Assembly (NCBI GenBank): GCA_023150835.1
Contig: JAKLKB010000038.1
Coordinates: 1-47,173, forward strand
From: Myxococcota bacterium
GTDB taxonomy: Bacteria; Myxococcota_C; UBA6777
Reading direction: 5' to 3'
DNA length: 47,173 bases
The number at the start of each line of letters is the position of its first letter. Position 1 is the stretch's first letter. Under the pieces are notes generated by a model. That model had not been told where the DNA came from and did not search any database. It saw only the letters and a program-made list of their open reading frames with translations. A program made the translations under genes and the position numbers. This document shows, in pieces, positions 32,071-36,491 of this stretch.

Positions 32071-32330
32071 GTCAGCGACGCAACAGAGATCGGGCAGGCA
32101 CACCTGTCTGCCCCTACAAAACACCGTGTGATTTCCAACACGTAGGGGCAACCCTGTGTACCTGCCCTCGCTGAGGTTGGTTTGAACGGACCCACTCGAT
32201 GTCACCGACGCAACAGAGATCGGGCAGGCACACCTGTCTGCCCCTACAAAACACCGTGTGATTTCCAACATGTAGGGGCAACCCTGTGTGCCTGCCCTAG
32301 CTGAGGTTGGTTTGAACGGACCCACTCGAT
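32071..32330. repeat. BIME-like module: two tandem 130-bp units, each with an inverted pair of GTAG-type REPs
   Basis: 32071-32200 is nearly identical to 32201-32330. Each contains gggcaggcacacctgtctgcccctac and gtaggggcaaccctgtgtRcctgccc. Confidence 0.9.
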
Positions 32331-32383
32331 CAAAAACGTCGCTCATGAGGTACCTTAGAAGACCTCAAAACACAACATGAGCC

Positions 32384-32695
32384 GAAAAGCAACCCCTTGG
32401 GTACCTCCTGCACTTGAAAAGCTACCCCGAAGGGTACCTTCTGCACTCGAAAAGCTACCCCGAAGGGTACCTCCTGCACTTGAAAAGCTACCCCTTGGGT
32501 ACCTTCTGCGCTCGAAAAGCAACCCCTTGGGTACCTCCTGCGCTTGAAAAGCAACCCCTTGGGTACCTCCTGCACTTGAAAAGCAACCCCTTGGGCTCCT
32601 TCTGCACTCGACAAGCTACCCCGAGGGCTCCTTCTGCACTCGACAAGCTACCCCGAGGACTCCTTCTGCGCTTGGACGGCTACCCCTCGGGTCAC
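32384..32695. repeat. Spacer-less tandem array of ~10 x 32-33 bp units
   Basis: Consensus gaaaagcWaccccttgggtacctYctgcactY. Unit starts at 32384, 32416, 32449, 32482, 32514, 32546, 32578, 32610, 32642, plus a partial unit. Confidence 0.92.
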
Positions 32696-32835: not shown

Positions 32836-33906
32836 ATGGTCGCTCTTTATAGAGAACCAACTCTTGAAAATGTGGTGTTATCCACCCTCCCATACCAAGT
32901 GGAAAGAAGCCGCCTCCCGAGCAAAGCACAAGACCATCGCGCTCTCTTTTCGTCGAAAAGCCCACATATACGCGAGGGAGAGTCGTATCCAAAACAACCC
33001 TTGAGCAGTCAAGAGCTTTTGTTGCAAAAAACCTACGCAGCTCTCGATCTGGAGATCGAAAAAATCGTCTCCAGCAAGTCCGTAAGCGAATTGCACTCCA
33101 GCATGACGCAGGGACTCTCTGCATCGTTTGAGTATTCGGTGGCCTATGCAAAGTTTCTGTTATCCATCGACGAAGAGAGTGTCGTTGCTTTTCTAACCCC
33201 ACCGCCGTCGCTGGTAGAAGAAAAAGATTTCGCAGAACATCGAATGCCAGAGCGGTTTCGCCGCAGTGTTCTACAGACTTTCAAAAAAATGTTGGACAAC
33301 GCGAGTCTACAAATTCTCTACTTACAAAAAGTAGCCCAAGATCCGATCTCACCAAAGACAGCAAACCAACCCCAAGGCCACTTTTTGCGCTCTTTTATTG
33401 GGTACTCTTTGCGATCAGAGGAAGATTGGCGACGAGAGGTTCTTTCGTGGTCTCAGGGCGAAGTCCCAACACATCACCTCATGGCAAGTTCTCTTTCCTA
33501 CCAAATGGCTGTGTTGTCTTTTTTTAAGACGGATCGCTCTAATCTGGAGTATCCGCTTGCGGTAGTCGAAGAGATACACGCGCAAGCCGTCCGCCAAAGC
33601 CACACGAACACAAAAACGTTGGATTTCTTTTACAGACAAGTTTTTGCTGAACTTTTCATTCAAAAAGTTTCGGAGATTCCGTGCGTTCTTGGTGTTCTCA
33701 AAAATACCAAACACATCCAAACCGATTCGTTTTATGTCCGAGTAAAGCACGCTGCAACAGATGAAGAAATCGATCCGATCTATGATGCTGAAGCTGAGTA
33801 TCTGTTGCCGTTGAGGAATCCTCCAAAGATGGAGATCACTTTTTCTTCCGCAGACAAGTTTTCCCACTACTCGCCCGTATGGCAGCGCGAAGAGATTTCT
33901 TTATGA
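32836..33906 (+). CDS. Hypothetical protein, probable partner of the downstream HEPN protein (C-terminus possibly degenerate MNT-like)
   Basis: AGGAG RBS at 32821. AT-richer than flanking genes. C-terminal FYVRV....DEEIDPIYDAEAEYL..MEITF. ATGA overlap with the HEPN gene. Confidence 0.65.
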   Translation: MVALYREPTLENVVLSTLPYQVERSRLPSKAQDHRALFSSKSPHIREGESYPKQPLSSQELLLQKTYAALDLEIEKIVSSKSVSELHSSMTQGLSASFEYSVAYAKFLLSIDEESVVAFLTPPPSLVEEKDFAEHRMPERFRRSVLQTFKKMLDNASLQILYLQKVAQDPISPKTANQPQGHFLRSFIGYSLRSEEDWRREVLSWSQGEVPTHHLMASSLSYQMAVLSFFKTDRSNLEYPLAVVEEIHAQAVRQSHTNTKTLDFFYRQVFAELFIQKVSEIPCVLGVLKNTKHIQTDSFYVRVKHAATDEEIDPIYDAEAEYLLPLRNPPKMEITFSSADKFSHYSPVWQREEISL

Positions 33907-33981
33907 TCGCGGAAAAATACAGAGAAATCGCCCTTTGCAATGAACGCCTATTTGAAAGCCTTCACTCCCAAGCAACCTGCG

Positions 33982-34255
33982 GTCAACGACCCACCCCTAA
34001 AGGGGCGGGCTTGTGAAAGCAAGCCCAGTTGACCAGACGACAACAGAGGAAGTGGCGCAAGCCAAGTTGTTGTGAACGATAGAGAGCATGTAGAGACCCT
34101 CGGATGCCGCCTCAGTTCGGGGCCCTCTCGTGGCACTGTAAACATCTGCTTGGGTGAGCGGAAGTCAACCACAATGCGAAGGCTCTTCTATCCCGTCGAG
34201 AGGATGTCGGATTCTGTGCTTGCCTCAAAAAGCACAGATACGCACGACCTGAAAA
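33982..34255 (+). ncRNA. omegaRNA (HEARO-like) scaffold of IscB
   Basis: Structured region between the element end and iscB with characteristic segments cccagttgaccagac, accctcggatgccgcctcagttcggggccctc, ctgtaaaca and gtcgagagga. 3' limit approximate. Confidence 0.8.
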
Positions 34256-34266
34256 GGAAAAACGTC

Positions 34267-35502
34267 TTGTTCGTTTTTATTCAAAACCAACACGGAACTC
34301 CCTTGATGCCTTGTTCTCCGGCCAAGGCTCGCCGTCTGCTCAACGATGGCAAAGCCAAGGTACTGCGAAAAACCCCCTTTACGCTCAAGCTGTTGTATGG
34401 CAGTTCGGGATACAAACAGCCTGTAGTCGCGGGCATGGATGCGGGAACGCACACCCTTGGATGCGCGGCGGTCACGAACGGCCAAGTCGTGTATCAGTCG
34501 GAGGTCAAGCTCCGAACCGATGTCTCCAAAAAGATGCAGCAAAGGGCGGTGTATCGGCGGAATCGGCGAGGACGCAAAACCCGCTATCGCAAAGCTCGCT
34601 GGCGCAATCGTGCGAGTCTGCGCAAAAAAGGTCGGATTGCGCCGTCGGTGCGCTCGAAGATCGAGAGCCACTTGCGTGAGAAAAAGCAGGTGGAGTCCAT
34701 ACTTCCCGTGACGAGATGGAAAGTCGAGACCGCGAGTTTCGATATACACAAGCTCACGAACCCCGAAGTGTCGTCTTTGGGCTATCAGGAAGGCGCTCAA
34801 AAGGGATACTACAACGTGAAAGCGTACGTACTGGAGCGAGATGGGTATCGCTGCCAATCGGGGCGAAAAGCGGAACACGACAAGGTATTACAAGTGCATC
34901 ACAAGGTGTATCGCTGTCAGGGCGGGACAGATACGCCCGACAATCTCGTCACGTTGTGTCGAAGGTGTCACGAGGACTTGCACGCTGGGATGTTTGAACT
35001 CAAGGCAAAAAAAAGCAAAACCAAACACGCGACAGAGATGGGGATCGTGAAAGCGCAGTTGAAAAAACGTTGGAGGTTTGAAGAGACGTATGGCTACGAG
35101 ACGAAGTACAAGCGAGAACAGTGTTTGGGCTTGTCGAAGAGCCATGCCAACGATGCGGTGGCGATCTGCTGCGAAGAAGGAGAGACGGTGAAGTTGGACG
35201 AAGTGTTGTACTTGAAGCGGCATGTTTCGGCAGGGGATTACCAACAAACGATGGGCAGACATTCACAAACACGTATCCCCACAGGAAAACTGTTTGGGCT
35301 ACGCAAACACGACTTGGTCAGGACAGAAAAAGGCACAGGATGGGTCAAAGGCAAGCGCAGTACGGGCTTTTTCGTACTCGAAACCATCGACGGCCAAACC
35401 CTCACCACTTCCGTCAATGTCAAGAAGGCCACCACTCGGCTGGCCGCACGAACCACCACCCTCACAACACAAAGAAAGAGCGGCGCTTCCTCCCCCCTCT
35501 AA
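34267..35502 (+). CDS. iscB: RNA-guided endonuclease IscB
   Basis: TTG start after AAAAGGA. PLMP motif, RuvC-I GMDAG, Arg-rich bridge helix RRNRRGRKTRYRKARWRNR, RuvC-II VETASFD, HNH QVHH..GGTDTPDNLVTLCRRCH, RuvC-III SHANDAVAI. Confidence 0.97.
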   Translation: MFVFIQNQHGTPLMPCSPAKARRLLNDGKAKVLRKTPFTLKLLYGSSGYKQPVVAGMDAGTHTLGCAAVTNGQVVYQSEVKLRTDVSKKMQQRAVYRRNRRGRKTRYRKARWRNRASLRKKGRIAPSVRSKIESHLREKKQVESILPVTRWKVETASFDIHKLTNPEVSSLGYQEGAQKGYYNVKAYVLERDGYRCQSGRKAEHDKVLQVHHKVYRCQGGTDTPDNLVTLCRRCHEDLHAGMFELKAKKSKTKHATEMGIVKAQLKKRWRFEETYGYETKYKREQCLGLSKSHANDAVAICCEEGETVKLDEVLYLKRHVSAGDYQQTMGRHSQTRIPTGKLFGLRKHDLVRTEKGTGWVKGKRSTGFFVLETIDGQTLTTSVNVKKATTRLAARTTTLTTQRKSGASSPL

Positions 35503-35887
35503 AGAAGGGGGTCTCCGCGCCTTAAAAACGATGAAGATCGGCGGTGGGTGATTACGATCATGTTTTATGCCGCGCTTCACTGGGTGAATACTGTGATGGC
35601 AGTTTGCGGGATAGAAACCGACGAAGAAGGCAGCCATGCGCTGCGTTCTCGTTTTTTAAACGATCGAAACTTTGAGCTTATAGGGATCGCGAAAGCCTAC
35701 AGAAATCTGCTTTCCGCAAGCAAAGACGCAAGATACCGAGGCGAGACATTCACCGCGCAAGATGTGCAGTCAAGACGTTCATCTTACGACAAGATCAAAA
35801 GCACTTGCATTCAATGGACTCAGGATCACCCCCACCCCACAGATGCGCAGAAATTAGCAGCCCAAGCACTCTAGATCGTAATAGGAC

Positions 35888-36036
35888 AGGAGCCCCCGCA
35901 GTTGGCCAAAAAAACCCGTGTTCGCACCCGTCCAAGCGAGAGCGTCGTGGGTGTGAAAAACAGTGATCAGTTCGCCAACACGGGGTCAAGGGGACGCAGT
36001 TCCCTTGCGGGGCGTGGGGTGGAACCCCACAAAACC
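35888..36036 (+). mobile_element. Family B MITE-like copy
   Basis: cgcagttggccaaaaaaacccgtgttcgc..gccaacacggggtcaagggg..cccttgcggggcgtggggtggaaccccacaaaac. Confidence 0.75.
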
Positions 36037-36346: not shown

Positions 36347-36491
36347 GGAGTGGCGCAGTTGCCAAAAAACCCCGTGTTTTGGGAGGTTCAAGCGAGAGCG
36401 CCGTTGGTTTGGAAGACGGTGCTCTGTTCGCCAATACGGGGTCAAGGGGGCTGTCACCCCTTGCGGGGCGTGGGGTGGAGCCCCACAAAAC
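36347..36491 (+). mobile_element. Family B MITE-like copy
   Basis: ggagtggcgcagttgccaaaaaaccccgtgtt..gccaatacggggtcaagggg..ggggtggagccccacaaaac. Confidence 0.75.

What the first reader, a model, noticed from the sequence alone, without database searches (positions are those of the whole stretch)
33903..35874. Intact IscB-omegaRNA element inserted in a HEPN toxin-like gene, with guide and TAM readable from sequence
Seen: deleting 33982-35530 joins ..acc tgc g|at gaa gat cgg cgg tgg gtg.. and restores a stop-free 140-aa HEPN-like ORF, which fixes the element ends. The bases 3' of the element are ATGAA. Both ends have CTAAAG-loop hairpins and iscB keeps PLMP, RuvC I-III and HNH motifs. Known: IscB takes its guide from the DNA flanking the omegaRNA 5' end and needs a 3' TAM; ATGA/ATGAA-type TAMs are reported for IscBs. 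Inference: this is an active OMEGA nuclease whose guide (about TCACTCCCAAGCAACCTGCG, 33962-33981) is HEPN coding sequence. It would cut intact HEPN alleles and act as a drive disabling a putative toxin/defence gene. It is also a compact (411 aa) nuclease candidate.
Basis: partly seen in the sequence, partly recalled or inferred. Interest (0 to 1): 0.85.

Follow-up and report, generated by a model that had tools for sequence, protein, structure and literature searches.

The report
IscB transposon splitting a HEPN gene
A known type of bacterial jumping element that carries its own RNA-guided DNA cutter has recently landed inside a small toxin-like gene; this is mostly textbook biology, but a related bacterium has a separate copy in the same gene, hinting that losing this gene is tolerated or favoured.

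Summary
A 1,549-bp ISC element (33982-35530) with a HEARO/omegaRNA and an intact 411-aa IscB sits at an N|ATGA site inside a 140-codon HEPN-T-type gene. Frame restoration alone does not fix the ends. Sibling copies do (21 of 22 right ends abut ATGA, one GTGA), as do the empty allele in two other studies and intact proteins in databases. The target is ATGA; the fifth base varies. Activity, guide length and TAM are inferred. The 'anti-toxin drive' is the published generic retention mechanism: the guide is whatever flank the element hit. Two populations carry family copies beside an intact HEPN gene. Toxicity is unshown: no Rx4-6H motif, weak partner match. Two additions: a congeneric genome has an independent copy at another ATGA 42 bp upstream in the same gene (post hoc chance about 1e-3). 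Most copies sit at host start codons (13 of 17 mapped sites vs 3.4% background); this scan saw that before on other DNA. No intact TnpA was found in this 93%-complete genome. Verdict: new member of a known kind.

The parts
33982..35530 (+). Non-autonomous ISC (IS200/IS605-superfamily) element, 1,549 bp, termini GTCAA...AACG, no target duplication
   Evidence: sibling ends; empty allele skipping 1549 bases in X5 and X9
33982..34208 (+). omegaRNA scaffold (HEARO, RF02033); probably extends to a further hairpin near 34240 (inferred)
   Evidence: 91 bits, gathering 83, full model 1-211; fold
33962..33981 (+). Predicted guide source: host flank (HEPN codons ~20-26) 5' of the omegaRNA; length not determinable
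   Evidence: position by known IscB biology (Meers); no other genomic site matches 12 or more guide bases plus ATGA
33990..34013 (-). IS right-end hairpin (33990-34009) with TnpA DNA guide CAAG (34010-34013 on the bottom strand) that fits the terminal TGAC
   Evidence: sequence, fold, pairing rule from IS608, (this copy only)
34267..35502 (+). iscB, 411 aa, TTG start, PLMP, RuvC I-III, bridge helix, HNH; stop codon in the terminal hairpin loop
   Evidence: NF040563 326 bits; PF14239, PF01844; alignment to solved IscBs and to five G002 copies
35473..35530 (-). IS left end: hairpin 35492-35511, bottom-strand DNA guide GAGA (35512-35515) that fits the TCAT target; on the top strand an SD-like purine run (AGAAAGG in most siblings, AGAAAGAG here) before a GGCGC/GCGCC stem
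35531..35534 (+). ATGA: transposition target and predicted IscB TAM
   Evidence: 21 of 22 right ends in G000 followed by ATGA; Kapitonov N|ATGA; GstIscB TAM TTCAT
33903..33981 (+). 5' part of the interrupted HEPN-T-type gene (codons 1-26); start overlaps the upstream stop (ATGA)
   Evidence: intact P0114, P0001, L071
35531..35874 (+). 3' part of the interrupted HEPN-T-type gene (codons 27-140); residual 108-aa ORF from GTG 35548 lacks helix 1 and the invariant W32
33940..33943 (+). Second internal ATGA, 42 bp upstream in empty-allele coordinates; occupied by an independent same-family element in G001
   Evidence: L025, L071 empty
32836..33906 (+). Upstream 356-aa ORFan, translationally coupled to the HEPN gene; its C-terminal ~100 aa weakly resemble the conserved upstream partner of this HEPN family
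   Evidence: P0112/P0116; rank 1 of 4,882 proteins searched but E 0.9; partner family in 74 of 75 loci

Best explanation
An ordinary, recently mobile, non-autonomous ISC element of the N|ATGA-target type landed in a dispensable HEPN-T-type gene of a two-gene, toxin-antitoxin-like operon. A Y1 transposase acting in trans (not found in this assembly) inserted it at ATGA through the element's own DNA guides (inferred). Host transcription of the operon reads into the element, making an omegaRNA whose 5' guide is HEPN sequence (inferred from known IscB biology). IscB then cuts any copy of the locus that has lost the element (guide match plus ATGA), and repair from the occupied sister copy restores it: retention, as published for GstIscB. 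The knockout is a by-product. Most family copies survive at start codons, where they get host transcription without breaking a gene; copies inside genes survive where the gene can be lost, and this HEPN gene has been hit twice independently. Shown here: ends, target, intact coding features, polymorphism, second insertion, start-codon bias. Inferred: RNA expression, cleavage, TAM, repair, dispensability.
For: HEARO at 33982. IscB equivalog 326 bits. 21 of 22 right ends before ATGA, the target and GT..CG termini described for ISC1-1_MA, with N|ATGA also listed for ISC2-1_HM and ISC2-1_MS. Empty allele in 2 of 4 runs, inserted allele in the other 2. Near-identical sibling ends (five at 98.5-99.3%) and five full-length copies in G002. 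Left-end DNA guide GAGA/GAAA in 18 of 19 G000 ends, fitting TCAT by the IS608 rule. 13 of 17 G001 insertion sites mapped to empty G000 sites are called gene starts, against 1,258 of 37,020 ATGA sites (3.4%) and 21% if only starts and intergenic sites were allowed (p 1.9e-6). Both HEPN insertions and a receiver-domain insertion (C218 + C87) are co-oriented with the host gene, as the published orientation bias predicts. Toxin genes of TA pairs are commonly pseudogenised first (185 toxin-only vs 8 antitoxin-only in Photorhabdus).
Against: No intact TnpA in G000: only a deleted tnpA on C42 with other ends and a weak hit on C113, none in G001. TnpAs of G002-G005 gave no tblastn hit in G000, though only 4 of 7 were extracted and searched. 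Nothing shows expression or cleavage by this copy; it differs from the main subfamily by about 6% (33 changes in 568 bases). Two hits in one 423-bp gene are unlikely under pure tolerance (about 2e-4 to 1.6e-3 for 1-5 intragenic copies in G001 and three genes at risk), so neutrality may not be the whole story. The gene caller is my own rough script (4,881 genes, 81% coding).
Confidence: 0.75

Rival explanations
1. Selected, IscB-locked knockout. The HEPN protein is a costly toxin or abortive-infection effector; insertions in it are favoured, and the element's own nuclease guards the knockout against precise excision and against re-acquisition of the intact allele by recombination. This is the defensible form of the first reader's 'drive'.
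For: Two independent insertions 42 bp apart in two haplotypes: the G001 copy is about 93-94% identical to ours over 463 aligned bases and its empty allele L071 is identical over the rest of the gene. Post hoc chance about 1e-3. HEPN fold with the alternative conserved His (H62) that Anantharaman et al. propose as an active site for AF0298-like HEPN-T. A conserved upstream partner family in 74 of 75 related loci that have an adjacent upstream ORF. The second haplotype has a silent ACGAA in place of ATGAA at our site, 1 of only 5 differences in 423 bp, which would resist this copy's IscB.
Against: Intact alleles persist: X5, X9, P0114 on 6 contigs, L071, so there is no sweep. No Rx4-6H, no PADLOC hit. 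The local partner is only weakly recognisable (E 0.9). n = 2 and the test is post hoc; other genes are also hit internally (receiver domains in both genomes). Only the right junction of the G001 copy is assembled: none of 28 G001 left ends has the HEPN flank. The ACGAA variant cannot be polarised.
Confidence: 0.17
2. Local hot spot or local hop. The site is unusually accessible to TnpA (for example, exposed single-stranded DNA), or one copy hopped 42 bp and was later converted to another subfamily sequence. The gene's function is irrelevant.
For: The two sites are only 42 bp apart; both are sense-strand ATGA near the 5' end of a gene within an operon. A multicopy palindromic repeat family lies just downstream (35931-36035; 560 hits in the genome).
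Against: The two copies differ at 28 of 463 aligned bases plus 8 gap positions and have different loop variants; they sit on different haplotypes, each with its own intact allele. The gene's own start ATGA, the usual parking site, is unused in both.
Confidence: 0.1
3. This particular copy is already inactive: inserted recently, but IscB or the omegaRNA no longer cuts, or the operon is too weakly transcribed to make a guide.
For: It is the divergent copy of the family (about 6% from the main subfamily); its SD-like end motif is altered; a few residues differ from all five G002 copies, e.g. DAG(T) in RuvC-I and RCQGG in HNH. Several siblings are decayed (C87, C135, C37, C180).
Against: Open 411-aa frame with all catalytic motifs; full-length HEARO match above gathering score; both DNA guides intact. 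G001 and C87 copies share the DAG(T) and several other variants.
Confidence: 0.15

Closest known systems
ISC transposons with the N|ATGA target: ISC1-1_MA, ISC2-1_HM, ISC2-1_MS (Kapitonov, Makarova, Koonin 2016, PMC4810608; passages read)
   Same: Non-autonomous, IscB only, subterminal hairpins, no target duplication, insertion 5' of ATGA; ISC1-1_MA has the same 5'-GT and CG-3' termini; ends proven by empty sites.
   Different: Host is a Myxococcota lineage (phylum from the record title of the G001 contig). The passages read do not mention start-codon parking or repeated hits on one gene.
ISGst5 / GstIscB of Geobacillus stearothermophilus (Meers et al., bioRxiv 10.1101/2023.03.14.532601; passages read)
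   Same: Guide from the flank outside the element, TAM equal to the transposition target (TTCAT, the reverse complement of ATGAA), cleavage of the donor joint to retain the element, need for host transcription and co-orientation with upstream genes.
   Different: Activity there is measured, here inferred. Sibling flanks here conserve four bases (ATGA), not five. No cognate TnpA found in this genome.
HEARO RNA (Rfam RF02033) and HEARO/IscB nucleases such as MG35-1 and OgeuIscB (PMC9755519 passages; PDB hits)
   Same: RNA family match above gathering score; same domain order.
   Different: 411 aa against 495-496 aa for the OgeuIscB chains; untested.
HEPN-T family, AF0298-like (PF05168; PDB 2hsb, 1ufb, 1wol; Anantharaman 2013, PMC3710099, passages)
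   Same: Fold (Z 16.1, rmsd 2.3, 120 aligned to 2hsb); no His in the Rx4-6H position; a conserved His between helices 2 and 3 (H62).
   Different: The protein itself has no Pfam hit; 20 of 96 relatives hit PF05168. The upstream partner family has no Pfam name, and here it seems fused to a long unknown N-terminal region.

Membership tests
ISC / IscB OMEGA element (IS200/IS605 superfamily) | IscB with PLMP, split RuvC, bridge helix and HNH | tested here: met
   NF040563 326 bits vs cut-off 175; PF14239, PF01844; motifs align to solved IscBs
ISC / IscB OMEGA element (IS200/IS605 superfamily) | omegaRNA/HEARO beginning at the element boundary upstream of iscB | tested here: met
   RF02033 33982-34208, 91 bits
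ISC / IscB OMEGA element (IS200/IS605 superfamily) | Fixed short target, no target duplication, subterminal hairpins with DNA guides | tested here: met
   21 of 22 ATGA; clean skip of 1549 bases; guides GAGA/GAAA in 18 of 19 ends; the pairing of guide positions 1-2 is, position 4 is recalled
ISC / IscB OMEGA element (IS200/IS605 superfamily) | Mobility (multiple copies, polymorphic sites) | tested here: met
ISC / IscB OMEGA element (IS200/IS605 superfamily) | Y1 TnpA available in trans | tested here: inconclusive
   none intact in G000 (93% complete) or G001 (86%); present in G002-G005, with ends only weakly like these
ISC / IscB OMEGA element (IS200/IS605 superfamily) | RNA-guided cleavage of the empty junction next to a TAM | not testable with these tools
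   needs an interference or TAM-library assay
Autonomous ISC2Y | tnpA (iscA) inside the element | tested here: not met
   the element holds only the omegaRNA and iscB
IStron (self-splicing IS) | group I intron inside the element that would splice out and rescue the host gene | tested here: not met
   HEARO is the only Rfam match at gathering score in the whole window
HEPN superfamily, HEPN-T type | HEPN helical fold | tested here: met
   pLDDT 94.9 model; top five structural matches are HEPN-type or unnamed proteins, best Z 16.1 to 2hsb
HEPN superfamily, HEPN-T type | alternative conserved His between helices 2 and 3 | tested here: met
   H62 and R65 at least 90% conserved in 96 relatives; described for AF0298-like proteins
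HEPN-MNT toxin-antitoxin system (HepT/MntA type) | Rx4-6H RNase motif in the toxin | tested here: not met
   the family ends helix 3 with S-x-x-A-R-Y; no conserved His follows
HEPN-MNT toxin-antitoxin system (HepT/MntA type) | adjacent MNT antitoxin gene | tested here: inconclusive
   one partner family in 74 of 75 loci, no Pfam or PDB sequence name; 'MNT-like' is my recalled resemblance; the local gene matches it only at E 0.9
HEPN-MNT toxin-antitoxin system (HepT/MntA type) | toxicity rescued by the partner | not testable with these tools
   needs a kill-rescue assay

The most novel reading that the evidence does not exclude
IscB elements of this family normally park between a host Shine-Dalgarno sequence and its ATG, borrowing host transcription for their guide and handing translation back through an SD-like run looped over the terminal hairpin. 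The exceptions that persist are locked knockouts: insertions in a costly HEPN toxin gene that are selected repeatedly and defended by the element's own nuclease against excision and re-acquisition, with a silent TAM change (ACGAA) in the sister haplotype as an escape allele.
Probability: 0.15. Interest if true: 0.6.

Novelty: new member of a known kind. Interest (0 to 1): 0.3.

Why it matters
As it stands this is a clean natural test case of a published mechanism: both alleles are known, the junction is exact, and guide and target can be read for a cheap interference assay with a short IscB from a little-sampled phylum. If the repeated hit on the HEPN gene reflects selection, it would show OMEGA elements acting as self-guarding gene knockouts of addiction or defence modules in wild populations. 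The start-codon bias helps to settle whether the known co-orientation of IscB elements comes from targeting or from retention.

Tried and rejected
Frame restoration as proof of the ends: rejected, 7 of 20 positions work. ATGAA as a five-base motif: rejected, the fifth base varies. Self-splicing rescue (IStron): no intron match. Autonomous element or cognate TnpA: two family searches in G000 gave only fragments. An apparent end match beside TnpA in G004 is an IS605 tnpA-tnpB element with other termini. Other genomic targets of the guide: none with 12 or more matching bases plus ATGA; one 10-base match. Expression: RNA run X15 holds element contigs at depth about 99-198 against about 4-5 for the flanks, but these are contigs of the main subfamily and the tool warns that depth cannot rank expression, so it is not used as evidence. 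Whether the X5/X9 empty alleles keep ATGA could not be read: each has one difference in the right flank whose place was not listed. Upstream ORFan: no relatives beyond its own cluster, uninformative atlas hits, single-sequence model unusable (pLDDT 35), no profile match to three metagenome partners. HEPN-partner complex prediction gave no answer (0.27, mark 0.32) and is not used either way. A promoter scan found nothing above chance (1 vs 1.9 expected). The G001 and G002 right ends were found with a pattern that includes RTGA, so they are not counted as a test of the target. In one search I gave the second HEPN site as 33942; it is 33940, and it is counted as a non-start either way. Literature: searches for start-codon parking or host-promoter use returned 0, 1 (unrelated, listing only) and 0 papers. 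The 2021 OMEGA paper and the 2009 HEARO paper were not held, so they may already note it; no supplements were read.
Full report
Observation. The window holds a full HEARO RNA match at 33982-34208, the only Rfam match at gathering score in 47 kb, followed by a 411-codon iscB at 34267-35502 (NF040563, 326 bits against a cut-off of 175). The PLMP motif, RuvC-I Asp, RuvC-II Glu, HNH and RuvC-III His/Asp align with solved IscBs. The missing second Cys in 'CQSG' is shared by all five full-length copies in the congeneric genome G002, four of which have ATG where this copy has TTG.

The ends are fixed by other evidence. In the window's genome (G000, 7.56 Mb, 93% complete) blastn finds 14 left ends, 13 starting GTCAA, with unrelated flanks, and 19 right ends, 18 followed by ATGA and one by GTGA. 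A profile search adds three more ATGA ends and one partial match without an end, giving 21 of 22. Of four runs laid (4 of 24 listed), X5 and X9, from two studies, have contigs that skip exactly 1549 bases. X1 and the RNA run X15 have contigs running from the flank into the element. A protein identical to the joined ORF (P0114) stands on 6 Logan contigs. There is no target duplication. The fifth base varies (A 11, C 5, T 2, G 1 of 19), so the readable motif is ATGA. On the bottom strand the four bases before the left-end hairpin are GAGA or GAAA in 18 of 19 ends and fit the target TCAT; CAAG fits the terminal TGAC in this copy. The pairing of the first two guide bases is in He et al. 2011 (PMC3201880, passages); that of the fourth is recalled.

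Known kind. Kapitonov et al. 2016 (PMC4810608, passages) describe non-autonomous ISC elements with GT...CG termini inserted 5' of ATGA. Meers et al. (bioRxiv 2023.03.14.532601, passages) show that GstIscB uses TTCAT, the reverse complement of ATGAA, cuts the donor joint left by excision and so retains the element. They also state that the guide lies outside the element, so host transcription is needed, and that IscB elements are co-oriented with upstream genes. No other site in G000 matches 12 or more guide bases plus ATGA. In X5 and X9 the element family lies at roughly 4-6 times flank depth beside an intact HEPN gene (depth is a rough figure), so other copies do not act on this gene. A drive could work only in cells with this copy, on sister chromosomes or incoming DNA. 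Guide length is open: published spacers run from 14 to 26 nt (PMC11666462, passages) and MG35-1 prefers 24 nt (PMC9755519, passages). No intact TnpA was found in G000 or G001; 4 of 5 relatives have one.

The host gene. P0001 has 110 other hits among 50%-identity representatives. A model from 96 aligned sequences (pLDDT 94.9) matches the HEPN protein AF0298 best (Z 16.1, rmsd 2.3, 120 aligned; Foldseek E 0.039). The protein has no Pfam or PADLOC hit itself; 20 of 96 aligned sequences hit PF05168. There is no Rx4-6H motif, but H62 and R65 are conserved, the alternative site proposed for AF0298-like HEPN-T proteins (PMC3710099, passages). Of 79 related loci from other genomes (the best 80 of 138, less the G001 locus), 75 have an adjacent upstream ORF and 74 of those form one family, the layout of a toxin-antitoxin pair. 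That family has no Pfam name. The upstream 356-aa ORFan here is the best match to its profile among 4,882 proteins, but only at E 0.9. So 'toxin-like' is a fair label and 'toxin' is unshown. The remnant ORF from 35548 lacks helix 1 and the invariant W32, and no intron was found, so the insertion is very likely a null.

A second insertion in the same gene. The congeneric genome G001 (a Myxococcota record) has the right end of a same-family element at the other internal ATGA of this gene, 42 bp upstream (window 33940). That copy differs from ours at 28 of 463 aligned bases plus 8 gap positions. Its empty allele is the metagenome contig L071: no difference over the rest of the gene, 99.8% over 1,832 bases, upstream gene intact. 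This haplotype differs from ours at 5 of 423 bases, one of them a silent change that turns our target ATGAA into ACGAA. So each haplotype exists both intact and interrupted, at different sites. With 28,773 intragenic ATGA sites, 1-5 intragenic copies in G001 and three genes at risk, the chance is about 2e-4 to 1.6e-3. The count of intragenic copies is rough (one search suggests several in each genome, among them receiver domains), the test is post hoc, and none of 28 G001 left ends carries the HEPN flank, so only one junction is seen. Toxin genes of chromosomal TA pairs are often lost first (PMC13617665, passages), which fits tolerance or mild benefit.

Where the family sits. Of 23 G001 right ends, 17 map to an empty G000 site at the junction, 2 to sites occupied in both genomes, 3 map only away from the junction and 1 not at all. 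Thirteen of the 17 are gene starts called by my own dicodon script, blind to the element (4,881 genes). The background is 1,258 of 37,020 ATGA sites (3.4%), or 21% if only starts and intergenic sites were survivable (p 1.9e-6; 1e-4 at 30%). Two of the 17 read ATGG or GTGA in G000. In G000, 14 of 22 right ends open frames of 100 codons or more (background 31.5%), for example a metK-like start (name recalled), and 8 of 19 left flanks hold an SD-like word against 11% of all ATGA sites. All five full G002 copies precede long ORFs. The likeliest cause is inferred: the guide needs host transcription, and a start codon is the place that gives it without breaking a gene. Whether the element restores translation is open. 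AGAAAGG lies just before a stem that would bring it about 10 nt from the ATG in 13 of 18 ends listed, and the iscB stop is 28 nt upstream, but the motif also codes for the IscB C-terminus. I noted this pattern before looking up earlier findings; the scan had reported it in another genome (e1-7796505) and for a stub in this genome (e1-7291036). Three searches found no paper on it, but two founding papers were not held.

Verdict. A real, intact-looking, recently inserted ISC element: a new member of a known kind. Shown: ends, target, polymorphism, HEPN fold, second insertion, start-codon bias. Inferred: expression, cleavage, TAM, retention, and any benefit of losing the gene. Interest 0.3; the locked-knockout reading has about 15% and would merit 0.6.

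Noticed in passing
G000:C225:36677-36854: Two head-to-tail copies (89 bp apart) of an IscB element's right end, each followed by ATGA, before an HPF/RaiA-like start (name recalled); a tandem end duplication.
   Followed up: partly
G000:C37:582-646: A ~65-bp stub of the element's 5' end between an SD and an ATG; reported earlier as e1-7291036.
   Followed up: partly
G000:C218:140 (-) and C87:653 (+): Left and right flanks join into a response-regulator receiver domain: a second intragenic, sense-strand insertion; G001 locus L178 looks like another receiver-domain hit.
   Followed up: partly
G000:C172:53768-55399; C226:6681-8211; C135:2434-3340: A second IscB subfamily (about 30% protein identity) shares the same DNA ends and target; the C172 site is also occupied in G001; C135 is internally deleted.
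   Followed up: partly
G000:C42:13500-15250: IS605 element with an internally deleted tnpA and a long tnpB frame; its ends differ from the ISC ends.
   Followed up: partly
window 35931-36035 and 36354-36491: Palindromic REP-like repeat with 560 blastn hits in the genome (434 of 80 bases or more) just downstream of the HEPN gene.
   Followed up: no
window 32071-32692: Tandem arrays (130-bp x2, 32-bp x8.4) directly upstream of the ORFan-HEPN operon.
   Followed up: no
L076-L154, upstream of the HEPN match: An unnamed 100-200-aa partner family precedes this HEPN family in 74 of 75 loci across Acidobacteriota, Chloroflexota and others; no Pfam name; possibly a degenerate nucleotidyltransferase fold.
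   Followed up: partly
L008, L012, L016, L020, L024 (G004): A same-family genome has related right ends with a longer tail that also end before ATGA and apparent gene starts.
   Followed up: no
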